Shown: positions 22,829 through 39,397 of the stretch, in pieces
Numbering within the stretch: the stretch's first letter is position 1
How the letters are laid out: every line of letters starts with the position of its first letter
Assembly (NCBI GenBank): GCA_963720265.1
Contig: CAVRET010000002.1
Coordinates: 264,704 to 328,703, forward strand
Direction of reading: 5' to 3'
DNA from: an uncultured bacterium
GTDB taxonomy: Bacteria > Patescibacteriota > Saccharimonadia > UBA4664
DNA: 64,000 nt
Notes under the pieces: generated by a model
What the model saw: the letters and a program-made list of their open reading frames with translations, nothing else
Told to the model about the DNA's origin: nothing
Database searches by the model: none
Made by a program: the position numbers and the translations under genes

Positions 22829-23020
22829 AACCGCGTTCGGCTCAAGCGCCCACCATGATACATGATTGACAAACGATCAAATAACTGGCACATCTGCACA
22901 GTCAACTGCCCCGTTAGGGTTCGAGACGGCCACAGTTAAGGCAGCTTGCGGTTCCGGGTCGGCGTCAAGCCAATAGCATAGAAAGCACCTGAGCCACGTC
23001 TGAATGCAAGCCTAGCATTT

Positions 23021-24709: not shown

Positions 24710-24736
24710 ATGCTAAGCCGTCGCAACTGAGCCTAA

Positions 24737-25099: not shown

Positions 25100-25193
25100 G
25101 CAAACGGCTCGTTGCCGTCTCGCACCGCCTGTTCCGCCTCCGCCAGCGCCAATTCATAACCCCTTCAGGCTGCATAATAATTCTGATAATTCC

Positions 25194-25269
25194 TGGCGCG
25201 CTTGGCAGGATTCGAACCTGCGACCCCCAGCACCGCAAGCTGATGCTCTATCCACTGAGCTACAAGCGC
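25194..25269 (-). tRNA. tRNA-Arg (anticodon GCG as read here)
   Basis: GCGCTTGTAGCTCAGTGGATAGAGCATCAGCTTGCGGTGCTGGGGGTCGCAGGTTCGAATCCTGCCAAGCGCGCCA. C35/G36 and an A-containing D-loop fit Arg identity. Confidence 0.75.
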
Positions 25270-25328
25270 ATGCGCCTAAGCACCACCCGACTTTACCATA
25301 TTCGGTCGCAAAAATAAAGTCAGTTGAA

Positions 25329-25928: not shown

Positions 25929-25999
25929 CACACCTGCTTCACTGGCATTATGACGCAACCGCAGGCAAAACCACAAGCATGATCAATAATTCCAATACC

Positions 26000-26085
26000 T
26001 GGCGGAGGGGGTGGGATTCGAACCCACGAGGCGCTAGCCTGCCGGTTTTCAAGACCGGTGCCTTCAACCACTCGGCCACCCCTCC
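26000..26085 (-). tRNA. tRNA-Ser (anticodon TGA)
   Basis: GGAGGGGTGGCCGAGTGGTTGAAGGC...CTTGAAA...GGTTCGAATCCCACCCCCTCCGCCA with a long variable arm and CCA. Confidence 0.8.
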
Positions 26086-26113
26086 AGAAAAATATAAAGA
26101 ATCTAATAATACC

Positions 26114-26206
26114 TGGCGGAGAGGGAGAGATTCGAACTCTCGCGAGGGATTACTCCCCCCTACAGGTTTAGCAAACCCGCCCCTTCAGCCTCTTGGGTAC
26201 CTCTCC
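26114..26206 (-). tRNA. tRNA-Ser (anticodon GCT)
   Basis: GGAGAGGTACCCAAGAGGCTGAAGGG...TTGCTAA...GAGTTCGAATCTCTCCCTCTCCGCCA with a long variable arm and CCA. Confidence 0.75.
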
Positions 26207-26723
26207 ACGCTTGCTGAACTCGGCTATAATACCGCGAACTTTCGTTTGTCTCAATACATTGGGCGGGGTCGGCCCGCCAGAGTCCGGCTCAACGAGCCTC
26301 ACTCCACCACGACCTCGTTGAACAATAGGAGCAACAAAGTAGACGACGAGTCCGGCGTAAGTAGCTTCAGCTACCTCCAGAGAGAGGCGCCAGGGTACCC
26401 CGGTTGATCGCCGCCCCAACGAGCGCTTGTATCGGCTCAGAGTTAAACAGTGGGGAATTCCCGCAACCCTCGCTGCAAGTTGCTCGTCCTGCTTGCCTCT
26501 AAGCGACCTTAGGCTAAACACGGCCACGAGCCCTATTGCAAGCGCCAGGCAAGCCACTGCGGTCAAGCCGGGCTCCCATTGGTAACATTCGACCGCAATC
26601 AGCAGTGCCTTCGCGTCTACACCGCACACACGTTCCCGGAGCCATCATCTCGATAAAGCCAAAACCCTTTCTTGCCTTTCATTTGAATGTCTGACTATAA
26701 TGGGCAAAAGGAGATTTTTCCAG

Positions 26724-27155
26724 ATGCCGGGTAAGAAATCCTCACCTGCTGAACAAGAAAACGTGCTGCAAGACGACTTTCTCGACGCCGCTCCCGAGGG
26801 CGAAGAAGATTGGATGGCCGAGGCCGAGGGCCAGCTTGCGGTTGACGTCTATCAAACCAAAGAAAACGTCGTAATCAAGGCCCCCATCGCCGGTGTAAGT
26901 GTCGACGACATCGACATTGAAGTTGCCGAAGATGTTGTCACGATCCGCGGTGAGCGCAAGGAAGAGGCCGAAGTCGACCGCGAACACTACTACGTCCAAG
27001 AATGCTACTGGGGCTCATTCTCTAGGTCGGTGATCTTGCCCACCTCAACGGTGGCCGAAAAAGCCGCTGCCAGTCTCAAAGACGGCGTCCTCACCATCAC
27101 CATCCCTAAGGTCGCCCAAGACAAGGTCAAGAAGATCAAGGTCAAGCCAATCTAG
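26724..27155 (+). CDS. Hsp20/alpha-crystallin family small heat-shock protein
   Basis: A-crystallin domain (QLAVDVYQTKENVVIKAPIAGV...GVLTITIPK). AAAGGAG ribosome-binding site 8 nt upstream of the second Met. Confidence 0.85.
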   Translation: MPGKKSSPAEQENVLQDDFLDAAPEGEEDWMAEAEGQLAVDVYQTKENVVIKAPIAGVSVDDIDIEVAEDVVTIRGERKEEAEVDREHYYVQECYWGSFSRSVILPTSTVAEKAAASLKDGVLTITIPKVAQDKVKKIKVKPI

Positions 27156-27177: not shown

Positions 27178-27211
27178 CAAAAAATAAGACCCGTCCGGGT
27201 CTTATTTTTAG
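27178..27211. terminator. bidirectional intrinsic terminator between Hsp20 and the pilin-like operon
   Basis: Perfect 10-bp stem aataagaccc/gggtcttatt with a 4-nt loop, flanked by A4 on the left and T5 on the right. Confidence 0.65.
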
Positions 27212-27224
27212 GCTACAACCGACT

Positions 27225-27665
27225 TTACGTTGATTTACTCAAGGTGGTGATCACAAACGACACCACCGCGAACGACACAATCGCGACCACAATACCTATG
27301 ATAGCGTACAAGATCGTGTCCTTGGCCGCTGACACGTTCTTCGGGTCGCCATTCGACACCACATACCGCAGACCACCGATAATCAGGAAGATCACGGCCA
27401 CGGCGCCGATGATAAACACTAAGGTGTCGGCAATGGTCTGAAACGCACCCCCCGGGGCAAACAGGTCGTTACTCGTCCCCGCCGCCTGACCGCAGCCGGC
27501 GCCATTTGCAAGCGGTGTAGTGGTAACGTCACTGCTGCAAGTGCCGGCCAAGGCCACCGGTGCCACCACTGTACTCACTGCCAAGCTCGCAATACCAAAA
27601 CCGGACGCTAAAATAAGTGCCTGTAACATAGGGAAGATCTTTTTGCCCAATTTCGCGATACGCAT
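27225..27665 (-). CDS. small secreted two-TM pilin-like protein (T4SS pilin / TrbC-VirB2-like), paralog 1
   Basis: Signal peptide MRIAKLGKKIFPMLQALILASGFGIASLA. Two Cys in the mature N-terminal segment. TM1-loop-TM2 with IIGGLRYVVSNGDPKNVSAAKDTILYAIIG. The track ORF extends to 27746. Confidence 0.6.
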   Translation of the reverse strand: MRIAKLGKKIFPMLQALILASGFGIASLAVSTVVAPVALAGTCSSDVTTTPLANGAGCGQAAGTSNDLFAPGGAFQTIADTLVFIIGAVAVIFLIIGGLRYVVSNGDPKNVSAAKDTILYAIIGIVVAIVSFAVVSFVITTLSKST

Positions 27666-27770
27666 CTGAAGTGAGTACTCCTTCATGTTCAATCTATTAT
27701 AACGCAACCTTACGTCGACCCTACCATAAGCACTTTCACTTGGCAAACAACAGGGCCGCCATTCCGGCTA

Positions 27771-28085
27771 CTATGTGATGCTGTTGATGACGAAGTTCAC
27801 AATCGCCCAGGATACAATCGCCACCACCACGCCGATCGCCGCATACAAGATCGTGTCCTTGGCCGAGCCGGTCGCCTTTGGATCACCGTTCGAGAGCACG
27901 TAACGCAACCCGCCGACGATAATCATAATGACCGAAATCGACCCAACCAGATACACCAATACATCAGCGATCAGTCCAAAGGTGTGCGGCAAATCCGTTT
28001 TGGTGTTGCAAACACTCCCGCAAGCCTGCGTGAGCCCGCTGGAGATGGCACTGGTGGCGTCTGCCATGAGATGGAAAGCTATCAT
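27771..28085 (-). CDS. pilin-like two-TM protein, paralog 2
   Basis: ACGSVC Cys pair, IVGGLRYVLSNGDPKATGSAKDTILYAAIG. Confidence 0.6.
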   Translation of the reverse strand: MIAFHLMADATSAISSGLTQACGSVCNTKTDLPHTFGLIADVLVYLVGSISVIMIIVGGLRYVLSNGDPKATGSAKDTILYAAIGVVVAIVSWAIVNFVINSIT

Positions 28086-28101
28086 TTTTGCCTCTCTTCC
28101 A

Positions 28102-28434
28102 TTAAATATTTCCGCTTGTGGCCCCCGCGATAAACGTCACAATCGCGTACCCGGCGATTGCAACGCCCAGACCCACACAGGCGTACAGGATCGTTTCTCT
28201 GGCCGTACTGGTCTTCTTGGGATCGCCACCCGATAGCACATATTGCAGTCCACCCACAATAATAAAGATGAGCGCCAGCCCGCCCATGAGCTCCATCATG
28301 AGTGCCACGCCGTTTGCCACTGCCTGGCCGAGGTTTGCCGTACTGCACGGTACCCCGATGTCGCTGGCCGTAATGTTATACGGATTGCTGCTTTGCGAGC
28401 CGCAGGCCGCAGCTGCCGCCAGTAACCAATGCAT
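28102..28434 (-). CDS. pilin-like two-TM protein, paralog 3
   Basis: Cys pair (ACGS...PCST), IVGGLQYVLSGGDPKKTSTARETILYACVG. Confidence 0.6.
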   Translation of the reverse strand: MHWLLAAAAACGSQSSNPYNITASDIGVPCSTANLGQAVANGVALMMELMGGLALIFIIVGGLQYVLSGGDPKKTSTARETILYACVGLGVAIAGYAIVTFIAGATSGNI

Positions 28435-28437
28435 GCT

Positions 28438-28791
28438 CTAAAACCCCTGCGCTATAAACGTTATGATCGCATATGCCAGGGTAATGAGCACCAGTCCGGT
28501 GGCCGTATACTGAATAATCTCCCGAGCGCGCTTGATTCGGTCCGGCGCTCCCATCGACGTAATGTAAAAAATTGCCGCCAACAAGATAGTAATAATCGCA
28601 ATCGACCCGGAAACCACAATCAAAATCCGGACCGCGTTGCCAATTATTACCAGCACGCCACTGACGGCGGTTAAGGTAATCTGGCCGTTCGTACAGGTCA
28701 GCCCCGGCCCGGGCTGGTATAGGCTCGGCGGAAACGCACTCGTTGGAGCGCAGGCGTCCGCCAACTTAAACAATCCCAGCATCGGCCCCAT
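28438..28791 (-). CDS. pilin-like two-TM protein, paralog 4 (divergent)
   Basis: Cys pair (ACAPT...TCTNG). Degenerate loop IFYITSMGAPDRIKRAREIIQYTATG between two TM helices. Confidence 0.5.
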   Translation of the reverse strand: MGPMLGLFKLADACAPTSAFPPSLYQPGPGLTCTNGQITLTAVSGVLVIIGNAVRILIVVSGSIAIITILLAAIFYITSMGAPDRIKRAREIIQYTATGLVLITLAYAIITFIAQGF

Positions 28792-29244
28792 CTATAGAAC
28801 CCCTCCCGGCACCAAATAGTTCAGAATCGCAAACATGCACAGGAACAACACCAGTGCGATCAGTGCGTTAGTTAGACGGTCTTTGGCTGCCTTAACCTGG
28901 CTCGGATTCGCACCCGAGGTAATATACTGCACGCCGGCAATAATAATCATGAGCAACACCACCGCCGCCACCGCGCTGCTAAGCAGCTGTAAGACGTACC
29001 TTAGATAGACAATTATTGCTCCGCCGGTCGCTGCATCATTAGGAACGCCGATCCCTCCGTCGTCCGCCTTGCAGGTTTGCATACCCGGCACTATCGGCAG
29101 CGAAATCTCCACACAATCCGGAGCCGTAATGCCGGTCTGCTGACTTAGCGCCGATGCTAGGCTAGTGCCCGGCAGCGCTACCGAACCCAAGAGCGCCAGA
29201 TATCCCGCAACCAGCGCGTAACGTAACCGCTTCATGATCTGCAT
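28792..29244 (-). CDS. pilin-like two-TM protein, paralog 5, first gene of the minus-strand operon
   Basis: Signal peptide MQIMKRLRYALVAGYLALLGSVALPGTSLASA. Cys pair (DCVE...TCKA). IAGVQYITSGANPSQVKAAKDRLTNALIA. Confidence 0.55.
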   Translation of the reverse strand: MQIMKRLRYALVAGYLALLGSVALPGTSLASALSQQTGITAPDCVEISLPIVPGMQTCKADDGGIGVPNDAATGGAIIVYLRYVLQLLSSAVAAVVLLMIIIAGVQYITSGANPSQVKAAKDRLTNALIALVLFLCMFAILNYLVPGGVL

Positions 29245-29269
29245 TGTACCGATCAGCTCAGGTAAAAGT

Positions 29270-29313
29270 CAAAATGCTTACGCTATCAAAAACGCTAATG
29301 GTATAATGCAGCC
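29270..29313. promoter_or_regulatory. candidate divergent promoter region; -35/-10 for the giant gene with a near-leaderless start
   Basis: TTACGC-N18-TATAAT, with the -10 box at 29303-29308 only 5 nt before the ATG at 29314. This implies a leaderless or very short-leader mRNA. Confidence 0.35.
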
Positions 29314-32300
29314 ATGTTCCGGAGGTGGTTCGCACTAGCACTCATGGCGTGGGCAACGCTGTCCACGGTCATTGGCTATGCTATCACTCCTACCACCGTT
29401 CTAGCTGCCACCGAAAGCTATGCCTACAACGGCAACGCTAACGATCCGGGTATCAATGCCACTGGCACGTTAAATGCCACCTTTATCCTTATCACGAATA
29501 CCCAATACACATATGACAGCTCTGGTAATTGTCCGGCCCACTACACGCTCAGCCTCAACACCGCCGGAGCCAGTTCCGGTGTCATCAGCACCACATCAAC
29601 CAATGGCAACTGCACTCCTAATCCGAATCTCAGTGGCAACGTGGCCATTACCGGTACGGCAGCAGGTGGTGGTGGCGCCGGTGGTGGCACCGCGGGCAAA
29701 GACACATACGCCTTCAACGCCAACGGTAACATCGCTGGTACAGGCGCGGTCAACGGCACCTTTACCACTAAAAATAACCTCAATTGGGATTACATCACCA
29801 CAAAGAACGGCTGTACCGTTGATTACGACATTTCAACCGTTACCACCAATGGCAATAACTCCAATGGTCAGATTGTCACAACCTGGAACCCAAATAAGGC
29901 CTCCTGTGCACCAGCCACCAGCCTCAACGGCACAATCACCATTTCCGGCCAAAAGTCCGGTGCAAACGGCGCCGCCACCGGCACCTACAATCTAGCCCAA
30001 GACGCCCAAAGCATCACCGCCTCGGGCTCCTATCCAACCTGCCTCGGTGCCGGCAACAACGGCAACGGCGCAAACCCCGTCTTTAATTACAGCTCGGCCG
30101 ACCAGCAATACGAATTTACCGTTCCCGCCAACCCGGCTGACCCCCAGACGCAGGATGTAACCGCCACCATTACCAACGTGTCCAAAATTGGCAGTACCAC
30201 GAATTATACCGGTACCCTCACTATTCCCGCACCTTGCAACTTCACCGGCAATATCACCATCAATGCCACGGCGAACACCGCCGCCGTGCCAAACACTTCG
30301 GGCGCCGGTAGCAATGCGCCGCCCTGCAACGCCGGAGACCTCAGCTGGCTCATTTGCAGCATCATCAACTTACTCGTCAATGGCATCGACGCGCTTGTCT
30401 CAAGCATTCTCATTCCGTTTATTCAGGTCCAACCACTGTCCACGACCGCCACGATCACCAATGCCGACGGCACTACCAGCGTTGTGGCCAGCCCCACCTA
30501 CAGCATCTGGGGCAAATTCCGCGATCTAGCCTCTGTGTTCTTCATATTGATATTCTTCATCATCATATTCGGCACGGCCATCGGGATGGATAATTATACG
30601 GTTAAAAAGATATTGCCACGCCTAGTCGCCGGCGCCATCCTCGTGCCGTTGTCGTGGTATATCTGCGCGGTCGGGATTGATATCGGCAATGTATTGGGCT
30701 TCGGTCTGCTTAAACTGTGCCAAGCAGTCATACCAAACCCAACTATTGATATTGGCACACCGCTGGCACAAATCTTCTTCGGGATCGGCGGCGCCATTGT
30801 CGTTACTCTGGCCACCGTCGCCATCACCACCATTGGCTTGGGCGTCTTGCTCACCATCGCTTTCGCCGTGCTGGCCGCCATTCTCACCCTCGTGCTGCGC
30901 AAAATTCTCATTATCTTGTTTGTGGTCTTAAGCCCATTTGCGCTCCTGGCCTGGATTTTGCCCAACACCGAAAAGCTCTACAAACAATGGTGGACCACGC
31001 TGACGCGCCTTATCCTGATGTTCCCGCTCATCATGCTGCTCATCGAGGCTGGGCGAATCTTTTCGCTCACAGCCGGCTCAGCGCTCGCCGGCGGCAACAT
31101 TGCTCTCTTCGGGGTCCACCTTCGACTGGCCGCCGCTCCGGGCACCGGGGCTCTGCAGCAGTCTGCGGTGCCGTTCTTGCAGCTCACTGGTCTTTTCTTG
31201 CCATTGGGCGCCGTTCCCTGGACCTTCAAGTGGGCCGGGGGTGCCATGGCCTTCGGCGCCGGTATGATTGCTCGCGGCCGCAAAGCCGCCGACAGCCGCT
31301 TTGGCCGCAGCTCCGACTTTGCCAAAGGCCGGGCCGAAGAGCGCCGCCGTAAAGCCGTTATTAACGCCAATGATCCCAATATCAATGGTGTCCGGCGCGC
31401 CTTTAACCGCGCCCGCAGCGAAACGGGTGGTGGCTTTGCCGGCATGGGGCGAGGAAATCGTATCCAGCAAGCGGCCGCCCAGGATGCCTTTGCCAAAGCC
31501 ACCAAGACCACGGCCACAGCCGACGCCGGAAGACGAGCTAGAGACGGCGCACTGCCGGGCGAGACGCCGCAGCAGCGCATCCAGGCCGAAACCCAAGCCG
31601 CACTCACTGGGATCGCCGACGAGCGTGCGGGCCGCCAGGGCATCCGCAATAACGTTGCCGCTGGTGCCGTCAGTGGCCGGCCGACCGACCTTGCGGCTGC
31701 CGGTAACGCCATCGCTGGTCAGCGTTACCTCGCCGGCGTTCAAACCGCTACACTCGGTGAGGCCAAGCGCATCGGCACCGACCGTGCGGTCATTCGCGGT
31801 GCCCAAGTACGTCCCATAGCACCCCAAGTCATGCAGGAACACGCCCAGTACGTTGAGGAGGGCAATCAGGCCCAACTCCGCGGCGAGATGCTGGGGTCAG
31901 TAAGCACCGTCAGACAAATTGATCAACGCAATGTCGCCACCGGTCGTGCCGCCAACCGGAATGAAGCCGCCGACCTGCGCGTTCGGGACCAGTCATTAGC
32001 CTCCTATGACAAAGCTCGCGAGGACGTGGCCGGCCTCTACGGCGCCGCCCTAGCCCGCAATGCCGTCACCCAGGCCGGCGGTGGTCGCGAATCTGTTGCC
32101 GATCTCACCGACGCGGGCATGCTTGCAGAACGCGAAAAACAAGCCCATGCCAAGGCCGAGCGCCAAGAACGTGTCAGCATCCGCAACACACCGGGCTACG
32201 CCGAAACTGCCGACGAGGTGCTCGAAGCCGAAACCGAGCACGCCAGAGAGTCGCTTGGCAAAGCAGCCAACACTCGTCGAGCCGCTCGCGAGGTCGGACG

Positions 32301-35300
32301 CCGCACCGGTGAAACCACCGAGCAGTTCCTAGCCAACGACTACGGCACAACCGAGCGCGCCACGTTTGACGCTGCTAATAAGCGCATCCAAACCGGTCAG
32401 GCTTCCCGCGAAGACGCCGACGAAAACTACCGAAAGACCATGGGCCCTACCGCCTACCGAGCGGCAATGGGCATTCCGGCAGGTGCACCTCTCAACCCTG
32501 CCCAAGAAGCCGCCGCACTTGCCATGACAGCTGAGGACATTTACCGGGCCAATAACGGTATGCTTCCAGGGACTCCTCTCACTCCAGCTCAGCAGGCTGC
32601 CGCCCAAGCTGCGGTTGCAGGCAATTACGACAATATGCAAATGGCCGCCTCACGCGAGGCTGCCCGCCGCACCGCCAACGCCGACGTCGGCAAATCGCTA
32701 TCCGTCCTCAACGACGAAGCCGGCAGCAACCTACCCGGCGGCACTACCAGTCAGCAATACCGGCAGCAATCCAACTATGAAGAAACCAAAAAGCTCGGTA
32801 CGGCATCCGGAAACGTTCAAGGCGTACTCGAGGCCCAAGCCGAAGAAGCCGCCCGCGACAATGCCGCTCCCGGCAGCTTCAATGCGCTCGCCGAAGCCGG
32901 GCTCCGCTCTTCCCGGGCCGGCCGTATTAATAGCAGCACCAAGGCTGCCGAAGCCTTTGGCACTGAGCAGGGAACCATCAACGCCAATGCCACCCGCACT
33001 GTCACCGCCGCCCAAGCTGCCGGCCAAGCTGAGCGCGCCACCGAGCAAAAGGCCTCGGCCGACAACGCCACGTCGCAAGAGAAGCTCGCCGAGTCACAGA
33101 TCGCCGAAGAGCAGCTCGCACGGCAGCTCTTTGGTGTTGCACCGGGTGTGGCAGTCACGCCGGTCCAGCTCGCCGCCGCCCGGGCCCAGATGCGCGAAAA
33201 CTCGGCTCGCAAGGCTGGCGCCGAGGCCAGAGATACACAGGCTTCTGAACTTGCCGGCACTGCTGCGGCAGTCCGAGGGCGCGAGCAGGCCATTGACCGC
33301 GAAATCAGGCGAGAGGCCGACGCCACCGGCCGGGTGCTAACAACACCCGAGGCTGAGCGCAATATCGTAAATAATGCCGCCGCCGTTGCCGCCGAAAAAG
33401 CCGAGAAAGAAGCCGCCGGCAAGGCCTCCGCCGACACCGGTACGCTCGGAGAACGCGAAAACGCCCTAAACGATGAAATTGCCAGGGTGTACAACGAGAC
33501 CGGCGCCTATCTCACCCGTGACCAAGCCGAGCAACGGCTCGCCAACGCTGCTGCCGAAAAATCCCGCCTCGATGCAGTTACAGCCGAGCGTAAAACTGTG
33601 GCCGAAGAGTTTGCCGCACAGGAGGGCCACCAGCAAGCAGTTGACGAAGAGATCGCCCGTGCCGCCGCCGCCGGTGCACCAATCCCGGCCGGAGCCACCC
33701 AACGCGCCCAAGCCGCCCGCAATATCAGCCGCAACATACGCGAAGACGTCCGCCACGAAGGCACAAGGTCTCAGCTCACAGCCGCCAGCGGGGCACGGGG
33801 CAAAGGCGAGGAGCGTGAGCGTGCAGTTCAAAAACAAATTGACGATGCTGCCGCTGCTGCCGCTGCCGGTACCGGCGTCGCTATTGACCGCGCGACCGCC
33901 CAGCGTAATCTGATTCATAATGCTTCCGAACAAGGCCGGATCGAGGCCGCGGATTCTGAGCGCAAGAAAATCGGTGATGCCGAAGGTGTTGCCGGCAGTG
34001 AGGCCACTGAGGCGGATGACGAAATAGACCACATGGGCCGCGAGGAAGTGCGCACCGAGCTCGCAAGAGCCGGCCTGGCCAACACGCTCGAAAACCGCCG
34101 CCGAGTTGCCCTCGAGCGGGTACGACGCCGCGGAGTTAGTGCCTCCTCTCGTCTCGCCGGCAACAAGCGCACCGGTCAAGCCGCTGAAGAGCGCGGCATC
34201 ATTGAGAATCGCGATCAATGGATACAGCGCGAAATCGATGAAGGACGCGTCCCAACCACCATTCTTGATCCCGCCAGCGGGCTGCGCCGCGCCACCAACG
34301 CCGCTGAAAAACAGGCCGCCGCCATCCGTAATCTCGAACGCCGCGCCGCCACTGCCGCCACCAAAAAAGCCGGCGATAACTACAACAAAGGTAACGCCGA
34401 AGAATTGGGCATCACCCAAGGCTATGATGCTGCCCTCAAAGAGCAAGCCGGCAACAACCGTCCGACTTCAGCTCAACTCCGCGCCGCTCGCCTCGCCCTG
34501 GCCGATCAGGAGATCAAAAAGACCGCCCGCGAAACGAGAGAGAACCTCTCGAGTAGCGTCGGCCAAACGAGAGAAGAAAATATCGCCGCAGACGCTGATG
34601 CGGCGGCCATAGAAGCCGACCTCAAAGCCCAGGCCGCAGCCGACGCCGCGGCTGCCAGGGCCGCAGGATTCGCAGGGGCGCGCGCTCGTCGCGTCACGAG
34701 ACAGCAAGTTCAATCTGAAATGCTGCGCCGCCAACGCCTAGCGGGCGCCGAAACCGGCGCCCGCGCGCAAGCTACCAAAAGCGGTCGCACTGAGGCGCTC
34801 GTGCAAGCCGCCCGCGTTGCCACTCCCGCCGTGCCCGCTACTACTACCACTCCCGCCGTGCCCACAGGGGCTCCGGGCTCCGGACGGCCGACTGCCGAGC
34901 AACGCCGCGACTCTGCCGTCCGAGAGCAGATCAAGGTAGCCGCTAATGAATCAGCATCGGTCACAGCTCACGATAATCCAGCCGTTCCAAAGATTGCGCC
35001 AACTCAACAATTCGCCGACTCTTTGCGCAACCGCCAAGAACGAGAAAACGAAAAAGTCATCGATGACGCTATGACTGACGCCGCCGCTGGACTGAGAATA
35101 GATGTGCCCGGTCGCGGCAGGATCCCACTCAAAGACGTCCAATACTCGAAGGAAGAAATGGACGCCGTCCAGAAGATTCTCGATGATGCCTTTACCACTG
35201 GTGACATTCCGACCGCCTTAGCGGCCATGGATCACCTTGCATCGGGTAGTGCTAGTGCACAAGCCCGGCTCGTAGATCGGTCCGACCCTAATAGTGTGGT

Positions 35301-35979
35301 GCGACGCTGGTTTGGCGGTGGAGATGACTCAAACGTCAGCTCTGATCCGAAGGTCTCAGAGCTAGCCAGGCTACACCCTGAATTAGTCGATCAAATGCAA
35401 ACACTCTGGAACCGGGCAGTCAAAGGCGGTAAAGACCCAGACCTCAAACTCCCCCCGTCTGTGAGTATGGACAAGATCGGCGCTGACCAGCTCCTAGCCG
35501 GTGGCGATCGATGGAAAGGCCGGCTCATCGGCCGTGCCACCGACAAGGCTCGTGACAAGAATAAAGAAAAACACGAGGACCAAATAGCGAACGGAATCGC
35601 AACCATCTTCAACAATCCAACCAAAGCCGGCAACGTTCGAAACCCCGACCGGGATGCCCTCTGGCGCTTCGTACTGCGTCGAGATGCCAATGGTGTTCTC
35701 CTTGATGACCGAGGAAACCGGATCAAGCGTATCGACCCGAAGACAGGCAATGATGTTGTTGACTCTCGCTACGGCGACGCGTTCCTAAGAGAGTATCGGC
35801 CAGGTGAAATGAGCGCCGAAGCAGATGCTAGTTTCGACGCCGCTAAGGCGGCCAAAGACAAAACGTACGCTGACCAATTCAGGCAATATCAGTTAATCCT
35901 AGGCCAGCAAAATGGTGCTGATATTATCAAGTGGCTCGAGGATGGACACAAGGCTGAGCGCACCAAGGGGAAGCCGTAA
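29314..35979 (+). CDS. giant secreted/polytopic T4SS-associated protein, VirB6/TrbL-like membrane core with a ~1600-aa charged coiled-coil-like C-terminal extension
   Basis: 2221 aa. Signal peptide MFRRWFALALMAWATLSTVIGYAITPTTVLAA. Residues ~33-330 form a Thr/Asn/Gly-rich low-complexity ectodomain. Residues ~335-600 contain at least 6 TM helices (e.g. ILVPLSWYICAVGIDIGNVLGF, VVTLATVAITTIGLGVLLTIAFAVLAAILTLVL). The rest is Ala/Arg/Glu/Gln-rich. Confidence 0.7.
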   Translation: MFRRWFALALMAWATLSTVIGYAITPTTVLAATESYAYNGNANDPGINATGTLNATFILITNTQYTYDSSGNCPAHYTLSLNTAGASSGVISTTSTNGNCTPNPNLSGNVAITGTAAGGGGAGGGTAGKDTYAFNANGNIAGTGAVNGTFTTKNNLNWDYITTKNGCTVDYDISTVTTNGNNSNGQIVTTWNPNKASCAPATSLNGTITISGQKSGANGAATGTYNLAQDAQSITASGSYPTCLGAGNNGNGANPVFNYSSADQQYEFTVPANPADPQTQDVTATITNVSKIGSTTNYTGTLTIPAPCNFTGNITINATANTAAVPNTSGAGSNAPPCNAGDLSWLICSIINLLVNGIDALVSSILIPFIQVQPLSTTATITNADGTTSVVASPTYSIWGKFRDLASVFFILIFFIIIFGTAIGMDNYTVKKILPRLVAGAILVPLSWYICAVGIDIGNVLGFGLLKLCQAVIPNPTIDIGTPLAQIFFGIGGAIVVTLATVAITTIGLGVLLTIAFAVLAAILTLVLRKILIILFVVLSPFALLAWILPNTEKLYKQWWTTLTRLILMFPLIMLLIEAGRIFSLTAGSALAGGNIALFGVHLRLAAAPGTGALQQSAVPFLQLTGLFLPLGAVPWTFKWAGGAMAFGAGMIARGRKAADSRFGRSSDFAKGRAEERRRKAVINANDPNINGVRRAFNRARSETGGGFAGMGRGNRIQQAAAQDAFAKATKTTATADAGRRARDGALPGETPQQRIQAETQAALTGIADERAGRQGIRNNVAAGAVSGRPTDLAAAGNAIAGQRYLAGVQTATLGEAKRIGTDRAVIRGAQVRPIAPQVMQEHAQYVEEGNQAQLRGEMLGSVSTVRQIDQRNVATGRAANRNEAADLRVRDQSLASYDKAREDVAGLYGAALARNAVTQAGGGRESVADLTDAGMLAEREKQAHAKAERQERVSIRNTPGYAETADEVLEAETEHARESLGKAANTRRAAREVGRRTGETTEQFLANDYGTTERATFDAANKRIQTGQASREDADENYRKTMGPTAYRAAMGIPAGAPLNPAQEAAALAMTAEDIYRANNGMLPGTPLTPAQQAAAQAAVAGNYDNMQMAASREAARRTANADVGKSLSVLNDEAGSNLPGGTTSQQYRQQSNYEETKKLGTASGNVQGVLEAQAEEAARDNAAPGSFNALAEAGLRSSRAGRINSSTKAAEAFGTEQGTINANATRTVTAAQAAGQAERATEQKASADNATSQEKLAESQIAEEQLARQLFGVAPGVAVTPVQLAAARAQMRENSARKAGAEARDTQASELAGTAAAVRGREQAIDREIRREADATGRVLTTPEAERNIVNNAAAVAAEKAEKEAAGKASADTGTLGERENALNDEIARVYNETGAYLTRDQAEQRLANAAAEKSRLDAVTAERKTVAEEFAAQEGHQQAVDEEIARAAAAGAPIPAGATQRAQAARNISRNIREDVRHEGTRSQLTAASGARGKGEERERAVQKQIDDAAAAAAAGTGVAIDRATAQRNLIHNASEQGRIEAADSERKKIGDAEGVAGSEATEADDEIDHMGREEVRTELARAGLANTLENRRRVALERVRRRGVSASSRLAGNKRTGQAAEERGIIENRDQWIQREIDEGRVPTTILDPASGLRRATNAAEKQAAAIRNLERRAATAATKKAGDNYNKGNAEELGITQGYDAALKEQAGNNRPTSAQLRAARLALADQEIKKTARETRENLSSSVGQTREENIAADADAAAIEADLKAQAAADAAAARAAGFAGARARRVTRQQVQSEMLRRQRLAGAETGARAQATKSGRTEALVQAARVATPAVPATTTTPAVPTGAPGSGRPTAEQRRDSAVREQIKVAANESASVTAHDNPAVPKIAPTQQFADSLRNRQERENEKVIDDAMTDAAAGLRIDVPGRGRIPLKDVQYSKEEMDAVQKILDDAFTTGDIPTALAAMDHLASGSASAQARLVDRSDPNSVVRRWFGGGDDSNVSSDPKVSELARLHPELVDQMQTLWNRAVKGGKDPDLKLPPSVSMDKIGADQLLAGGDRWKGRLIGRATDKARDKNKEKHEDQIANGIATIFNNPTKAGNVRNPDRDALWRFVLRRDANGVLLDDRGNRIKRIDPKTGNDVVDSRYGDAFLREYRPGEMSAEADASFDAAKAAKDKTYADQFRQYQLILGQQNGADIIKWLEDGHKAERTKGKP

Positions 35980-35998: not shown

Positions 35999-36775
35999 AT
36001 GAGCCAATACAAAGTACCCCAAAACGTCGAGGCCGAAGACCACATCCTCGGGCCGCTCACCTTCAAGCAGTTTATCTACGGCTGCATCGGGTTTGGTTGG
36101 GCCATCGTTTGCTTTGGGCTCTTTAAGGACATTCCCGCGCTCATGTTTGTGGTCGGGTTTCCGCCCACACTGCTGTTTCTGCTGCTCGCATTCTATACCC
36201 GCGACGGGCAAAACTTCGAGCAAATATTGCTGGCAATGGTTGGTTTCTTTGCCTCCGAGCGGCGTAGACTATGGGTTAAGGAAGCCGTGGCAGTCACATT
36301 TGAGGTCGAGCCGGCCAAAATTATCAGTGAAACTACCCAACGCAACCCCGCCGAAGTTCGCAGCCAGCTTGAGCGGCTCTCTAATCTCATAGACTCGCGC
36401 GGCTGGAACCTCGACCCACGATCCGACCATTCGGAAATGCAGCAGTTTCTGCCCACCACGAGCCACAGCGACCGTCTCGTTGCTCCACCACCGGCAGTAC
36501 CCCAGCCCGACGAACCCCGTGCCGACATGCTCGACCTAACAAATAGCCCGCTCGCGCAAAATCTTGCCCAACTCCTAGCCGATGCCGCCGGTGAAGCCAA
36601 ATCTCAAGCAATCGACAGCATCGGCGCCAACCCGCGCCGAGCTCGCGAGTTAAGCACAAGCGGCGTGACACCTGGAGCCCAGGCCGATATACTAAGACTA
36701 GCCACAGAAGGCGGCGACCTGACGGTCGCTAGACTCGCCGCCCAAGCTAATCGAGTGAACCGAGATGCCAGCTAA
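35999..36775 (+). CDS. PrgI-family / VirB3-like small T4SS membrane protein
   Basis: N-terminus MSQYKVPQNVEAEDHILGPLTFKQFIYGCIGFGWAIV matches the PrgI pattern (Y-V-P...G-L-T-x-x-Q-F) with a 2-TM hairpin. Sits directly upstream of VirB4, as in Gram-positive T4SS. Confidence 0.55.
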   Translation: MSQYKVPQNVEAEDHILGPLTFKQFIYGCIGFGWAIVCFGLFKDIPALMFVVGFPPTLLFLLLAFYTRDGQNFEQILLAMVGFFASERRRLWVKEAVAVTFEVEPAKIISETTQRNPAEVRSQLERLSNLIDSRGWNLDPRSDHSEMQQFLPTTSHSDRLVAPPPAVPQPDEPRADMLDLTNSPLAQNLAQLLADAAGEAKSQAIDSIGANPRRARELSTSGVTPGAQADILRLATEGGDLTVARLAAQANRVNRDAS

Positions 36776-37499
36776 TACCGAAGCCAAGGAAGGCAAAAGC
36801 ACCCAAAATACCCTCCTTATCTCCGAGGTCAAGGACGGGGTAGTTGTTATGCGCGACGGCAGTTTGCGCGGTGTGATTTTGGGCTCAGCCATTAATTTCG
36901 ACCTCATGAGCACAGAGGAGCAGGAAGCGACCGAATACGCCTACCAAGGCTTCATCAACTCGCTCCATTTCCCAGTCCAAATTTCCATCAAGAGCAAAAA
37001 AATCGACATCGCACCCTATGTCGAGAAGCTACAGGCACAGCGCTCCGAACTCTCTAATGAACTACTCGGCTCGCTCATGGACGACTACATCTTAAACATC
37101 AAGGCCTTAGTCGAGCAGGTTAACATCATGGACAAGCAGTTTTATATCACGGTGCCGTTCTTCCCTCCCATGGCCGTAAAGAAAAACACCAACCTGTTTG
37201 CCGAGCTCAAAGCCGCCTTTGAGCCAACACCGATCATCATCGTCTCAGAAGAAGACTTCCGCAATTACAAGCAAGAATTAACTGAGCGCATGCAGTTGGT
37301 CGAATCCGGCCTTACCCAAATGGGCATCCGCGCCTTGGCCCTCGGCACCCAGGAGCTGGTTGACCTGTATTATTCCTGGTACAACCCCGACGTCGCAGCC
37401 AACGAGAAACTCATTGAAGTCGGTCAAATCACCACGCCGGTTGTCACCAAAGGCGAAGGTTCCGCCCCGCGCGGCCCACTGCCAGGGGCTCCAATCTAA
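36765..37499 (+). CDS. VirB4/TraC-family N-terminal domain encoded as a separate ORF
   Basis: LISEVKDGVVVMRDGSLRGVILGSAINFDLMSTEEQEATEYAYQGFINSLHFPVQI resembles the conserved N-terminus of Gram-positive VirB4 homologs (PrgJ/TcpF/TrsE). The stop TAA overlaps the next ATG (TAATG at 37497-37501). Confidence 0.5.
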   Translation: MPANTEAKEGKSTQNTLLISEVKDGVVVMRDGSLRGVILGSAINFDLMSTEEQEATEYAYQGFINSLHFPVQISIKSKKIDIAPYVEKLQAQRSELSNELLGSLMDDYILNIKALVEQVNIMDKQFYITVPFFPPMAVKKNTNLFAELKAAFEPTPIIIVSEEDFRNYKQELTERMQLVESGLTQMGIRALALGTQELVDLYYSWYNPDVAANEKLIEVGQITTPVVTKGEGSAPRGPLPGAPI

Positions 37500-39397
37500 T
37501 GGCCTTTGGACGCAAACACGACGCCGGCTTCCAGGCCAACCAGCTCGAGGAAATGGCACGTCTCCAGGATCAGCACGAGGCCGAGCTCATCTATCGCCAG
37601 GGTATTGTTACCATGCGCGACCTCATCGCACCCCCTAGCCTTGAGATCGAGTCCGGCTACCTCAAACTCGGCAAGCGCTATTGCAAAACCGTCTACGTCT
37701 ACGGCTACCCACGTCAGGTCTTTACCGGCTGGCTGTCGCCGATCATTAACCTCGACGAAATTATCGATATATCACTCTTCATTTATCCGGTTGAAAGCCA
37801 GGTTGTTTTAAGCAACCTGAAGAAAAAAGTCGGCCAGATGGAAGCCAGCTACCAGATCAACGAAGAAAAGGGGAGGGTGCGTGACCCCGGTCTCGAAGCC
37901 GCAATCCAAGACGCTGAAGAACTCCGCGACAAACTGCAAGTGGGGGAGGAGCGCTTTTTCCGTTTCGGCCTCTATCTCACCATGTATGCCGACAACCTTG
38001 AAGACCTTACCCAAGTTTCGCGAAAAATCGAGGGCATTTTCGGCCAATCACTTGTCTATACCAAGCCTGCCACCATGCAAATGGAGCAAGGTTTCAACTC
38101 CTCAATTCCGCAGGCAACCGACCAGCTTCAGATTTATCGCAACATGAATACCGGCTCGCTCTCCACCAGTTTCCCGTTTACCTCAGCCGAGTTGTCTCGC
38201 AACGAAGGCATTCTCTACGGCCTCAACCGCCACAACAACGGCCTCGTGCTGTTTGACCGCTTCTCGCTCGAAAACGCCAACATGGTCGTATTTGCCAAGT
38301 CCGGCGCCGGTAAATCCTTTGCCATCAAACTTGAAGCCCTGCGCAGTCTCATGATGGGCGTTGAAATCATCGTTATCGACCCCGAAAACGAATATGAGCG
38401 ACTGTGTGAGGCCGTTGGCGGCACCTACTTGCGCCTCAGCCTGGCATCTGCCACCCGCATCAACCCATTTGATCTGCCCCGCGTGTTTGACCAGGACGAG
38501 GCTGATAACGCACTCCAAGCCAATATCATTTCGCTCCACGGTCTGCTCCGACTTATGATGGGCGGTGCCACCGTCAACAACACCACCGGCGCCACTACCT
38601 CAACCCCGCTGACGCCGGCTGAGGACGCCGATCTCGATCTCGCCATTATCAATACCTATGCTAGAGCCGGCATCACCAAAGACCCACTCACGCATGGCGC
38701 CACGCCGCCCACAATGAACGACCTCTATAACACTTTGGCCTCGATGTCGGGCAACGGTCCATCCCTCGCTGCCCGCTTGCGCCAATACACCACCGGCACC
38801 TTTTCCGGCATTTTCTCAGAACAGTCCAATGTTGAGATCAACAATCCGTTTTTGGTCTTCAACATCCGCGACCTCGAAGATGAACTCCGCCCAGTCGGCA
38901 TGTACATCGTCCTCAACTATATCTGGAACAAGGTCAAATCTGACCGCCGCCGCCGCCTTCTCATCGTGGACGAGGCCTGGCAGCTCATGAAGTACGACGA
39001 TTCCGCTAACTTCATGTTCTCACTCGCCAAACGCGCTCGCAAATACGCCCTCGGCCTTACGACGATCTCGCAGGACGTTGAAGACTTCTTGGCCAGCAAA
39101 ATGGGCCGCGCCGTGGTTGCCAACTCGTCACTACAGCTCCTGCTCAAGCAAGCACCGTCCGCCGTTGACATCGTCGCCGATACCTTCAAGCTCACCGATG
39201 AAGAGAAAAAACGCTTAAGCCAATTCCCGGTCGGGGAGGGCCTATTCTTCGCCGGCCTTAACCACGTCATCATGCGTGTTCTCGCTTCAGACAACGAGGC
39301 GCAGCTCATTTCCACCACCCCGGCAACTCCGCAGAACGCGTCCGCCGACTATCAATCCGAACCATCGCAAACAGACCAAGAACAGCCCGCATCATAA
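37499..39397 (+). CDS. virB4: VirB4-family T4SS ATPase, C-terminal (middle plus ATPase) portion
   Basis: Walker A VVFAKSGAGKSF, Walker B RLLIVDEAWQLM, and the TTISQDVEDF motif. 632 aa, 876 aa combined with the upstream ORF. Confidence 0.85.
   Translation: MAFGRKHDAGFQANQLEEMARLQDQHEAELIYRQGIVTMRDLIAPPSLEIESGYLKLGKRYCKTVYVYGYPRQVFTGWLSPIINLDEIIDISLFIYPVESQVVLSNLKKKVGQMEASYQINEEKGRVRDPGLEAAIQDAEELRDKLQVGEERFFRFGLYLTMYADNLEDLTQVSRKIEGIFGQSLVYTKPATMQMEQGFNSSIPQATDQLQIYRNMNTGSLSTSFPFTSAELSRNEGILYGLNRHNNGLVLFDRFSLENANMVVFAKSGAGKSFAIKLEALRSLMMGVEIIVIDPENEYERLCEAVGGTYLRLSLASATRINPFDLPRVFDQDEADNALQANIISLHGLLRLMMGGATVNNTTGATTSTPLTPAEDADLDLAIINTYARAGITKDPLTHGATPPTMNDLYNTLASMSGNGPSLAARLRQYTTGTFSGIFSEQSNVEINNPFLVFNIRDLEDELRPVGMYIVLNYIWNKVKSDRRRRLLIVDEAWQLMKYDDSANFMFSLAKRARKYALGLTTISQDVEDFLASKMGRAVVANSSLQLLLKQAPSAVDIVADTFKLTDEEKKRLSQFPVGEGLFFAGLNHVIMRVLASDNEAQLISTTPATPQNASADYQSEPSQTDQEQPAS

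What the first reader, a model, noticed from the sequence alone, without database searches (positions are those of the whole stretch)
27225..29244. Tandem array of five paralogous pilin-like two-TM proteins with conserved Cys pair and GGL(R/Q)Y(V/I)xSxGDP loop
Five back-to-back minus-strand genes (104-150 aa), spaced 0-16 nt apart, share one architecture. Each has a signal peptide or N-terminal segment with exactly two Cys residues, then TM1, a short loop, then TM2. Three copies carry the near-identical loop IIGGLRYV(V/L)SNGDPK...AKDTILYA and two are divergent. This resembles VirB2/TrbC-type pilin topology. Multiplied paralogs with a conserved disulfide suggest a heteromeric or antigenically variable pilus/filament, or alternative subunits. 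The operon is divergent from the VirB6-like giant gene and ends at a strong bidirectional terminator.
Basis: seen in the sequence. Interest (0 to 1): 0.7.

Follow-up and report, generated by a model that had tools for sequence, protein, structure and literature searches.

The report
Saccharibacterial type IV secretion pilin array
These five small genes are the VirB2-like pilin array of the type IV secretion system found next to the replication origin in Saccharimonadia (CPR bacteria); the array is already described and was shown to be essential in a cultivated relative, so this is a real but ordinary new instance.

Summary
Five co-oriented minus-strand genes at 27225-29244 each encode a two-helix membrane hairpin. 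All five match Pfam T4SS_pilin (PF18895): four score above the curated cut-off, and g4 falls below it but gives hhalign probability 98.8% against the others.

The array sits divergently from a 2221-aa VirB6-like gene, which is followed by PrgI, TraC-like, VirB4 and lytic transglycosylase genes. It is convergent with HSP20 and lies about 20 kb from dnaA. The same layout is seen in Southlakia epibionticum (SEML1_0013-0022), whose six pilins were essential in Tn-seq. It recurs in most of 80 Saccharimonadia genome loci fetched here.

Arrays of this kind were reported in 2018, 2023 and 2025 (441 arrays of 2-11 genes).

My additions:
- The paralogues are ancient, position-specific orthologue classes, not recent duplicates (412/427 array proteins match another genome better than their own array).
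- The last gene has a signal peptide, its own conserved promoter-like element and a conserved Shine-Dalgarno (ribosome-binding) sequence, and is under strong purifying selection, so it is the likely major subunit.
- The three middle genes lack signal peptides in this clade.
- The Cys pair is not conserved in the g3 class.

This favours a heteromeric, non-redundant subunit set over antigenic variation. Verdict: new member of a known kind, low interest.

The parts
28792..29244 (-). g5, first gene of the array: 150-aa T4SS_pilin-domain protein with a Sec-type signal peptide, a short Cys-pair ecto-segment (C44, C58) and a two-TM hairpin. This is the 'first-position' class, whose ectodomain length varies widely between genomes. 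The functional start may be the second ATG at 29235 (MKR...).
   Evidence: PF18895 38.6 bits; hydropathy; 14/14 positional homologues best-match g5; first-position proteins range 112-469 aa; conserved MKR start.
28438..28791 (-). g4: 117-aa divergent pilin-like hairpin protein with no signal peptide, a Cys pair (14/33) and a conserved C-terminal ...GF. Its start abuts the g5 stop (0 nt).
   Evidence: PF18895 21.5 bits, below the 26.6 cut-off, and no precomputed Pfam hit. Clade HMM 64 bits, E=2e-19. hhalign g4 class vs g1 class 98.8%, vs g5 class 99.1%. 17/18 positional orthologues.
28102..28434 (-). g3: 110-aa pilin-like hairpin protein with no signal peptide. The window copy has Cys 11/30 plus Cys 86 in TM2. 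Most orthologues lack the N-terminal Cys pair.
   Evidence: PF18895 31.2 bits; alignment of orthologues; 16/18 positional orthologues.
27771..28085 (-). g2: 104-aa pilin-like hairpin protein with no signal peptide and a conserved C-x3-5-C motif (Cys 22/26) in the N-terminal tail. It is the closest paralogue of g1 (54% identity).
   Evidence: PF18895 42.8 bits.
27225..27665 (-). g1, last gene: 146-aa pilin with a Sec signal peptide (A-x-A site before Cys43), Cys 43/58, and a hairpin at 74-145. It is the most conserved class and the candidate major subunit.
   Evidence: PF18895 40.8 bits; public gene call P0001 is 146 aa; orthologues 54-70% identical with invariant Cys; AF2 hairpin pLDDT >90; dN/dS 0.03-0.07 against an 80%-identical orthologue; 18/18 positional orthologues.
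27666..27770 (-). g2-g1 intergenic region (105 nt) with a conserved promoter-like element and a conserved Shine-Dalgarno. Elements: TTGCCA 27746-27741, 17-nt spacer, TG-n-TAGGGT 27726-27718, a second TATAAT at 27701-27696, and AAGGAG 27683-27678. Inferred to be an internal promoter that boosts g1.
   Evidence: Read from the sequence. The same TTGC(C/T)A ... TATG(C/G)TAA(T/G)GT ... TAAGGAG arrangement is seen upstream of g1 orthologues in 19 loci. The gap before the last gene is typically 50-110 nt, against 30 nt or less elsewhere in the arrays. Function not tested.
29243..29272 (-). Promoter-like site for the array (TTGACT-18-TACAAT) in the 69-nt divergent intergenic region shared with the VirB6-like gene.
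   Evidence: Consensus scan, 10/12 matches. This is a consensus match only.
27180..27209 (.). Bidirectional intrinsic terminator: 13-bp perfect hairpin with a 4-nt loop, flanked by A- and T-runs, between g1 and the convergent HSP20 gene.
   Evidence: Sequence; RNA fold -26.6 kcal/mol, z = -2.9.
29314..35979 (+). Divergent 2221-aa extended VirB6/TrbL-like protein (context, same system).
   Evidence: Precomputed PF19590 TrbL_3, though my own hmmscan found no family. Homologue present divergently next to the array in 62/81 loci. The S. epibionticum counterpart SEML1_0013 was annotated TrbL/VirB6-like by structure.
35999..39397 (+). PrgI/VirB3-like gene (35999-36775), TraC-like 244-aa gene (36765-37499) and VirB4-like ATPase (37499-39397): the core T4SS machinery.
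   Evidence: PF12666 at 3.3e-12; PF19044, AAA_10 and DUF87; PF26593; conserved synteny.
39488..43763 (+). 964-aa protein with no Pfam hit, and a 472-aa lytic transglycosylase (SLT; VirB1-like).
   Evidence: The S. epibionticum genes SEML1_0007/0006 at the matching positions are DD-peptidase-like and lysozyme-like.
26700..27155 (+). Convergent HSP20 gene, a conserved neighbour of the array.
   Evidence: PF00011 at 6.9e-20; next to the array in 74/81 loci; SEML1_0020 Hsp20 is essential in S. epibionticum.

Best explanation
The five genes are the VirB2-like pilin array (Pfam T4SS_pilin, PF18895) of the chromosomal, origin-proximal type IV secretion system that is conserved across Saccharimonadia (Patescibacteria/CPR). 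The locus is the syntenic counterpart of SEML1_0014-0019 of Southlakia epibionticum.

Shown here:
- Each protein is a two-helix membrane hairpin.
- The five are homologous to one another and to T4SS pilins.
- They sit in a conserved T4SS locus.
- They fall into five ancient, position-specific orthologue classes.

Inferred topology: the basic loop (GGLRY-x-S-x-GDPK) faces the cytoplasm in the membrane, and would face the lumen in an assembled tube. The N-terminal segment is extracytoplasmic and is usually stapled by a disulfide.

Inferred mechanism:
- The proteins insert into the membrane. g5 and g1 use Sec with signal-peptide cleavage. g2-g4 use N-tail insertion without a leader.
- The VirB4 ATPase and VirB6 platform then extract them to build a wall-spanning tube or short pilus at the contact site with the host bacterium.
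- g1 is the abundant major subunit. It is the last gene, has its own conserved promoter-like element and strong Shine-Dalgarno, and is the most conserved class.
- g5 (variable Cys-rich ectodomain) and g2-g4 are low-copy, non-interchangeable minor subunits, for example for initiation, tip or base.

The transported cargo is unknown.
For: Family:
- PF18895 hits for all five, four above the cut-off.
- hhalign between the classes gives 98.1-99.9%.
- 120/120 homologues hit PF18895; 14 also hit TrbC/VirB2 and 19 hit CagC.

Topology:
- Two TM segments with K/R in the loop.
- AF2 hairpin H74-103/H108-145 at pLDDT >90.
- Even Cys counts (0, 2, 4, 6) dominate in the N-terminal segments.

Context:
- PrgI, VirB4 and SLT; TrbL_3 and TraC-like; dnaA, dnaN and recF 0.2-5 kb beyond the last gene of the cluster (45222), about 20 kb from the array.
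- The same architecture is seen in 62-74 of 81 loci.
- It matches S. epibionticum: SEML1_0013 VirB6-like, 0014-0019 pilins, 0020 Hsp20, 0022 tRNA-Ser. Each of the six pilins scored GD/ES/ES in Tn-seq, while the outlying pilin 0024 was non-essential (PMC10633639).

Non-redundant classes:
- 82/86 positional homologues in 18 close loci best-match the same window paralogue.
- In 74 arrays, 412/427 proteins match another genome better than any paralogue in their own array. First-to-first matches are 67/74 and last-to-last 71/74.

g1 as major subunit:
- Conserved promoter-like element and TAAGGAG in the g2-g1 gap in 19 loci.
- Highest cross-genome identity, 55-66%.
- dN/dS of 0.03-0.07.

Literature: 441 arrays of 2-11 pilin genes in Patescibacteria (PMC12102498); six VirB2-like pilins essential in Se (PMC12857230).
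Against: - No T4SS-type filament has been seen on any Saccharibacterium in the papers read. The filaments characterised so far are type IV pili and Pam pili (PMC11623550; bioRxiv 10.64898/2026.03.03.709456).
- Foldseek against the PDB gave no significant match (best E=1.9; an archaeal conjugation pilus at E=5.2), because a helical hairpin is too simple to discriminate. A profile search of PDB sequences found nothing.
- None of the five window proteins hits PF04956 TrbC directly at E<=1. NCBIfam Mbov_0395 hits are below the cut-off.
- The major/minor assignment rests on gene order, consensus promoter matches and conservation, not on abundance data.
- Tn-seq essentiality of upstream genes could partly reflect polar effects.
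- dS in the dN/dS estimate is saturated (pS about 0.7).
Confidence: 0.85

Rival explanations
1. Antigenic or host-range variation. The paralogues would be interchangeable alternative major pilins, as proposed for the tandem VirB2 copies of Bartonella and Anaplasma, diversified so that the surface filament can be varied or matched to different host strains. This is the suggestion made for Patescibacteria in PMC12102498.
For: Paralogues within the array are highly divergent (24-55% identity), in line with the 25% average reported in PMC12102498. Middle-position genes vary in number (arrays of 4-9), and 15/205 middle genes have their best match inside their own array, which indicates some recent duplication. 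The first-position ectodomain is very variable in length (112-469 aa).
Against: - Each position forms an orthologue class conserved across genomes, and 412/427 proteins match another genome better than a paralogue in their own array.
- There is no sign of gene conversion or homogenisation.
- The g1 ecto-segment is under purifying selection (dN/dS about 0.07) with invariant residues across 13 orthologues.
- g5-g2 are tightly packed or abutting, so they are probably co-transcribed rather than alternately expressed.
- All six S. epibionticum array pilins are individually essential in one host.
Confidence: 0.1
2. No extended pilus. The VirB2-like proteins would act only as membrane or cell-wall channel components of the T4SS (a short stalk or conduit on the VirB6 platform), or as insertion and assembly factors, without forming an extracellular filament.
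For: Monoderm (MPF-FATA-type) T4SSs normally lack pili (PMC12102498, PMC12857230). No T4SS pilus has been reported in Saccharibacteria imaging papers read here. g2-g4 lack signal peptides in this clade, which fits membrane-resident subunits.
Against: The family is homologous to pilus-forming VirB2, TrbC and CagC. The N-terminal Cys-paired ecto-segments and the large ectodomains on first-position proteins (up to 469 aa) point to exposure outside the membrane. Retaining 5-9 paralogues in 1-Mb genomes suggests a structural polymer with several parts.
Confidence: 0.25
3. Secreted effectors or unrelated small membrane proteins (holin, bacteriocin or immunity-like) that merely neighbour the T4SS. 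TM7x transcriptome work labelled the array genes 'putative effectors'.
For: The TM7x literature refers to six putative effector genes next to the T4SS (bioRxiv 10.1101/2022.03.25.485537). The proteins are small and hydrophobic.
Against: The specific profile matches are to T4SS_pilin, TrbC and CagC, and there is no holin, bacteriocin or toxin family hit. Two-TM hairpins are integral membrane proteins, not soluble effectors.
Confidence: 0.02

Closest known systems
Essential T4SS pilin array of Southlakia epibionticum ML1 (SEML1_0014-0019; Wang et al. 2023, PMC10633639) and the 'array of small VirB2-like proteins' of Nanosynbacter lyticus TM7x (McLean et al., bioRxiv 10.1101/258137)
   Same: Same Pfam family (PF18895). 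Same locus architecture: the VirB6-like gene is divergent, Hsp20 is convergent, tRNA-Ser lies beyond it, and PrgI, VirB4 and cell-wall hydrolases follow. The locus is near dnaA. The last gene is the one that annotation pipelines call 'pilin'.
   Different: Five genes here instead of six. There is no additional outlying pilin like the non-essential SEML1_0024. In this clade the three middle genes are shorter (about 100-117 aa) and lack signal peptides, whereas McLean et al. describe all array members as signal-peptide-bearing, and 152/226 middle genes in more distant loci have an SP-like segment. Nothing has been tested experimentally in this organism.
VirB2/TrbC/TraA conjugative pilins of Gram-negative T4SS (Pfam PF04956 and relatives)
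   Same: Small two-helix hairpin with a basic inter-helix loop, an N-terminal leader on g1 and g5, and genetic linkage to VirB4, VirB6 and VirB3. The sequence link goes through family members: 14/120 homologues also hit PF04956, best E 6.6e-8.
   Different: The window proteins themselves do not hit PF04956. The host is a monoderm with an MPF-FATA-like machine. There are five differentiated paralogues rather than one pilin plus VirB5. A Cys-paired N-terminal ecto-segment is present. No TraF-type cyclase or TraQ/TraX partner was identified. No pilus has been observed.
Tandem VirB2 paralogues of Bartonella, Anaplasma phagocytophilum and Rickettsia T4SS
   Same: Several virB2-like genes in tandem within a T4SS locus of a host-dependent bacterium.
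   Different: Those arrays are interpreted as antigenic or host-interaction variants (as cited in PMC12102498). Here the paralogues are ancient, position-specific orthologue classes under purifying selection.
Minor-pilin sets of type IV pili and type II secretion (FimU-PilVWX, GspHIJK). This is a functional analogy only.
   Same: One conserved, highly expressed major subunit plus a fixed set of about four divergent, individually required minor subunits encoded together.
   Different: There is no homology: the fold, the leader and the assembly ATPase all differ. The analogy is my inference and has not been tested.
NCBIfam NF045849 Mbov_0395 family pilin-like conjugal transfer protein (Mycoplasma ICE)
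   Same: A two-TM pilin-like protein in a monoderm conjugative T4SS. Weak hits to four of the five proteins (E from 8e-8 to 8e-5) and a marginal one to g4 (E 0.084).
   Different: All scores (12.6-31.9 bits) are below the curated cut-off of 40, so these proteins are not members.

Membership tests
Pfam PF18895 T4SS_pilin | Profile score at or above the gathering threshold (26.6 bits) | tested here: met
   g1 40.8, g2 42.8, g3 31.2 and g5 38.6 bits. g4 scores 21.5 bits, which is below threshold. g4 is tied to the family by hhalign at 98.8-99.1% and by a clade HMM at E=2e-19.
Pfam PF18895 T4SS_pilin | Two hydrophobic helices joined by a short polar/basic loop | tested here: met
   Kyte-Doolittle segments and charge positions; AF2 model of g1 with helices 74-103 and 108-145 at pLDDT >90.
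Pfam PF18895 T4SS_pilin | Encoded within a T4SS gene cluster (VirB4, VirB6, VirB3/PrgI) | tested here: met
   conserved in related loci.
Saccharimonadia chromosomal T4SS pilin array (SEML1_0014-0019 type) | Tandem array of two or more T4SS_pilin genes, divergent from the VirB6-like gene and convergent with Hsp20, near dnaA | tested here: met
   Window layout, compared with S. epibionticum Table S1/S2 and 80 genome loci.
Saccharimonadia chromosomal T4SS pilin array (SEML1_0014-0019 type) | Essential for epibiotic growth | not testable with these tools
   Known only for S. epibionticum Tn-seq (PMC10633639). The organism of this window is uncultured.
TrbC/VirB2 pilin (PF04956) | Direct profile match | tested here: not met
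   None of the five proteins has a PF04956 hit at E<=1. The link is only indirect: 14/120 homologues hit it.
TrbC/VirB2 pilin (PF04956) | Cleaved N-terminal leader on every subunit | tested here: inconclusive
   An SP-like segment is present in g5 and g1 only. This is my own hydropathy heuristic; SignalP was not available.
TrbC/VirB2 pilin (PF04956) | Polymerises into an extracellular conjugative pilus | not testable with these tools
   No multimer prediction or imaging was possible. No such filament is reported in the papers read.
Antigenically variable VirB2 arrays (Bartonella/Anaplasma type) | Paralogues more similar to each other than to orthologues, or diversifying selection on exposed parts | tested here: not met
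   412/427 proteins match another genome better than a paralogue in their own array. dN/dS on the g1 ecto-segment is about 0.07, with dS saturated.
NCBIfam NF045849 Mbov_0395 pilin-like conjugal transfer protein | Score at or above the curated cut-off (40 bits) | tested here: not met
   Best score is 31.9 bits.

The most novel reading that the evidence does not exclude
The array would encode a heteromeric T4SS filament with a dedicated minor-pilin set: one major VirB2-like subunit (g1, separately promoted) plus four ancient, non-interchangeable minor subunits. Of these, g5 is an ectodomain-bearing tip or initiator, and g2-g4 have become leaderless in this clade. This would be a division of labour analogous to type IV pilus or T2SS minor pilins, and it has not been described for any VirB2-type pilus. 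The published suggestion for these arrays is antigenic or host-range variation.
Probability: 0.35. Interest if true: 0.6.

Novelty: new member of a known kind. Interest (0 to 1): 0.25.

Why it matters
The Saccharimonadia T4SS is the only T4SS known to be essential to the bacterium that carries it, and its function is unknown. Ideas include nutrient or nucleotide uptake from the host and effector delivery (PMC11665869, PMC12857230). It is also the only monoderm-type T4SS with VirB2-like pilins.

This window adds no new kind of system. The comparative results do sharpen a testable model: position-specific orthologue classes, a separately promoted and strongly conserved last gene, leaderless middle genes in one clade, and a g4-class gene that Pfam-based surveys miss. 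The model is one major plus several minor subunits, rather than antigenic variation. It could guide tagging, stoichiometry and cryo-ET experiments in the cultivable species.

Tried and rejected
- Foldseek of the AF2 g1 model against the PDB gave no significant hit. A helical hairpin matches chemoreceptors, ATP-synthase c subunits and the like at E>1, so fold comparison cannot decide membership.
- A profile search of PDB sequences gave only a spurious cystinosin match at E=3.8.
- NCBIfam gave only sub-threshold Mbov_0395 hits.
- My own hmmscan of the 2221-aa protein, and of its TM-rich segment, did not reproduce the precomputed TrbL_3 hit. The VirB6-like label therefore rests on the precomputed annotation, synteny and the S. 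epibionticum structure-based annotation.
- Exact look-ups of three downstream T4SS proteins to get more annotated context found nothing. DNA for the closest g1 relative, P0008, was unavailable, so dN/dS used L082 only.
- I considered a lipoprotein reading for g3 (MHWLLAAAAAC) and g4 (..KLADAC). I rejected it because there is no basic n-region, the h-region is very short, residues at -1 to -3 are inconsistent among g4 orthologues, and most g3 orthologues lack the Cys.
- I considered a holin, bacteriocin or effector reading. I rejected it for lack of any profile support.
- The Pam pilus preprint (bioRxiv 10.64898/2026.03.03.709456) describes a different, Ig-fold, donor-strand-exchange system and is not related to these genes.
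Full report
**1. The observation**

The stretch 27225-29244 carries five consecutive minus-strand ORFs. In order of transcription they are:

| Gene | Coordinates | Length |
|---|---|---|
| g5 | 28792-29244 | 150 aa |
| g4 | 28438-28791 | 117 aa |
| g3 | 28102-28434 | 110 aa |
| g2 | 27771-28085 | 104 aa |
| g1 | 27225-27665 | 146 aa |

- The maximal g1 ORF starts at a TTG at 27746 (173 aa). The public gene call (P0001) and all orthologues start at the ATG of MRIAKL.
- Junctions are 0, 3 and 16 nt for g5/g4, g4/g3 and g3/g2. The g2-g1 junction is 105 nt.
- Every protein has two strongly hydrophobic segments joined by a short loop that holds most of the K/R residues.
- Each N-terminal segment contains exactly two Cys. 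g5 and g3 have a third Cys inside TM2.
- Only g5 and g1 have a signal-peptide-like N-terminus. g2-g4 cannot have one, because their ORFs begin 0-16 nt after the preceding stop.
- A 13-bp perfect hairpin flanked by A- and T-runs (27180-27209) separates g1 from the convergent HSP20 gene.

**2. What the genes are**

- All five proteins hit Pfam PF18895 (T4SS_pilin). Four exceed the gathering score. g4 reaches 21.5 bits against a cut-off of 26.6.
- Profile-profile comparison of orthologue alignments links every class to g1 or g5 with 98.1-99.9% probability.
- An HMM built from related loci finds exactly these five ORFs in the 64-kb window.
- Of 120 database homologues, all hit PF18895. Fourteen also hit PF04956 TrbC/VirB2 (best 6.6e-8) and nineteen hit the Helicobacter VirB2 homologue family CagC. 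This supports the VirB2 superfamily relationship, although the window proteins themselves do not hit PF04956.
- AlphaFold2 models g1 as a signal helix, a low-confidence ecto-segment and a confident helical hairpin (74-103 and 108-145, pLDDT >90).
- Fold and sequence searches of the PDB were uninformative.

**3. Context and origin**

- Divergently upstream lies a 2221-aa protein. A precomputed annotation calls it TrbL_3/VirB6-like, but my own hmmscan did not reproduce the hit.
- It is followed by PrgI/VirB3-like, TraC-like and VirB4-like ATPase genes, a 964-aa protein and an SLT lytic transglycosylase.
- recF, dnaN and dnaA lie at 45468-50217. The cluster is therefore origin-proximal, as reported for Patescibacterial T4SSs (PMC12102498).
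Their homologues are almost all from Saccharimonadia/Saccharibacteria MAGs.

**4. Comparison with relatives**

I fetched 80 genome loci encoding g1 relatives, called ORFs in them and searched with a family HMM.

- Arrays of mostly 5-6 and up to 9 pilin genes are the rule.
- The VirB6-like gene lies divergently upstream in 62 of 81 loci, and HSP20 lies next to the array in 74 of 81, mostly convergent as here.
- In the 18 closest loci the five-gene order g5-g4-g3-g2-g1 is preserved. In total 82/86 positional homologues best-match the window paralogue at the same position, at 46-58% median identity. Paralogues within the window share only 24-55%.
- Across 74 arrays, 412/427 proteins have a better match in another genome than within their own array. 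First-position proteins match first-position proteins in 67/74 cases, and last matches last in 71/74.
- The array is therefore an old set of differentiated genes, not a product of recent amplification or gene conversion. Only some middle-position genes (15/205) look recently duplicated.

**5. Class-specific features**

- **g1 class (last gene).** It has a Sec signal peptide with an A-x-A site just before the first of two invariant Cys. Orthologues are 54-70% identical.
- **g1 upstream gap.** The gap carries a conserved promoter-like TTGCCA-17/18-(TG)n-TAATGT/TAGGGT element and a conserved TAAGGAG Shine-Dalgarno in all 19 close loci. In the window these lie at 27746-27718 and 27683-27678. The gap before the last gene is 50-110 nt in nearly all arrays, against 30 nt or less elsewhere.
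- **g1 selection.** Against an 80%-identical orthologue (L082), dN/dS is 0.07 in the ecto-segment and 0.03 in the hairpin. dS is saturated, so this only shows that there is no excess of replacements.
- **g5 class (first gene).** It has a signal peptide and an ectodomain of very variable length (112-469 aa overall), mostly with even Cys counts.
- **g2 and g4 classes.** They keep a Cys pair. Most g3 orthologues have none.
- **Signal peptides in middle genes.** In this clade, middle genes lack any SP-like hydrophobic segment (1/53). In more distant Saccharimonadia, 152/226 middle genes have one.
- **Detection of the g4 class.** It carries no precomputed Pfam hit. Pfam-based surveys would therefore score this array as interrupted by a 'non-pilin' gene.

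**6. What is already known**

- McLean et al. (bioRxiv 10.1101/258137, 2018) described a syntenic array of 4-6 small VirB2-like proteins next to VirB4 and VirB6 in Saccharibacteria.
- Wang et al. [quoted passage not shown]
- Their supplementary tables list SEML1_0014-0019 as PF18895 proteins, each classed GD/ES/ES. These lie between the VirB6-like SEML1_0013 and Hsp20 SEML1_0020, with tRNA-Ser beyond. A seventh, outlying pilin (SEML1_0024) is non-essential.
- The window shows the same order in mirror image: VirB6-like, five pilins, HSP20, then two tRNA-Ser genes at 26000-26206.
- Quinonero-Coronel et al. (Microb Genom 2025, PMC12102498) counted 441 VirB2 arrays of 2-11 genes in 383 Patescibacterial assemblies. 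Mean identity was 25% and the maximum 54%. They suggested antigenic or host-range variation by analogy with Bartonella and Anaplasma.
- No T4SS filament has been reported in the imaging papers I read.

**7. Most likely mechanism**

Shown: family membership, hairpin topology, T4SS linkage, and deep positional orthology.

Inferred:
- The N-terminus and C-terminus are outside the membrane and the basic loop is inside, from the positive-inside rule and the even Cys counts.
- The proteins are membrane-inserted pilins that the VirB4/VirB6 machine extracts and polymerises into a wall-spanning tube or short pilus at the host contact site.
- g1 is the major subunit. g5 and g2-g4 are minor, non-redundant subunits.

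Rival readings:
- *Antigenic variation* is disfavoured by orthology, purifying selection, tight co-transcriptional packing and individual essentiality in S. epibionticum. The essentiality evidence carries a polarity caveat.
- *Channel-only role without an extended pilus* remains open.
- *Effector, holin or bacteriocin* has no support.

**8. Verdict**

This is a correct reading by the first stage of a real feature. It is a new instance of a system already described in several papers, so interest is low. The most novel reading that my evidence does not exclude is a VirB2-type filament with a dedicated minor-pilin set.

Noticed in passing
window 45468-50217 (recF, dnaN, dnaA, all minus strand) and yidC at 51369-52184: The T4SS cluster ends within about 0.3-5 kb of recF-dnaN-dnaA, so it lies close to the replication origin. 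This matches the origin-proximal placement reported for Patescibacterial T4SSs and the low locus-tag numbers of the S. epibionticum cluster.
   Followed up: partly
window 26700-27155 (+); related loci L002-L081: An HSP20 gene lies next to the pilin array in 74 of 81 loci, mostly convergent as here. Its S. epibionticum counterpart (SEML1_0020) is essential. The linkage is far more conserved than chance synteny would suggest, and it may point to a chaperone role for the hydrophobic pilins. No explanation was tested.
   Followed up: partly
window 29233-29272 (-): The -10 hexamer of the promoter-like site TTGACT-18-TACAAT overlaps the first ATG of g5. Orthologues conserve an 'MKR' start that corresponds to the second ATG at 29235. 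The g5 mRNA may therefore be leaderless or nearly so, and the protein 147 aa rather than 150.
   Followed up: no
window 29314-35979 (+): The VirB6-like protein is 2221 aa. After the N-terminal Thr/Asn/Gly-rich part and the TM-rich part (about residues 330-700) comes a C-terminal region of about 1400 aa rich in Ala, Arg, Glu and Gln, where GC rises to 0.63. Homologues vary from about 800 to over 2500 aa. The precomputed TrbL_3 hit was not reproduced by my hmmscan.
   Followed up: partly
related loci L039-L042, L046, L048, L053, L055, L067, L081: In ten more distant Saccharimonadia loci an extra g1-like pilin gene sits on the opposite strand, 1.5-4.3 kb beyond the array and past HSP20. It is the likely counterpart of the non-essential SEML1_0024. 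The window has no such sixth gene.
   Followed up: partly
L018 7477-8886 and other first-position genes: First-position (g5-class) proteins carry ectodomains from about 40 to about 350 aa. The L018 protein is 469 aa with many Cys. Their extreme C-terminus...L(V/I)PGG(I/V)L, is nearly invariant. The g4 class ends in a conserved ...(K/A/Q)GF. The meaning of these class-specific C-termini is unknown.
   Followed up: no
window 23021-24709 (+): A 562-aa protein with ricin-B lectin and fibronectin-III domains. It is a candidate surface glycan-binding adhesin of the kind found essential in S. epibionticum (PMC10633639).
   Followed up: no
window 22630-26206 (-): A cluster of three tRNA-Ser genes (CGA, TGA, GCT) and one tRNA-Arg (GCG) lies just beyond HSP20. 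A tRNA-Ser occupies the same relative position in S. epibionticum.
   Followed up: no
window 28400-28434 (g3 N-terminus): The window's g3 has an N-terminal 'AAAAACGSQSS' insertion and a second Cys (VPCST), where most orthologues read LAANPYNI...LPTST with no Cys. The Cys pair in this paralogue therefore appears to be a lineage-specific gain.
   Followed up: partly
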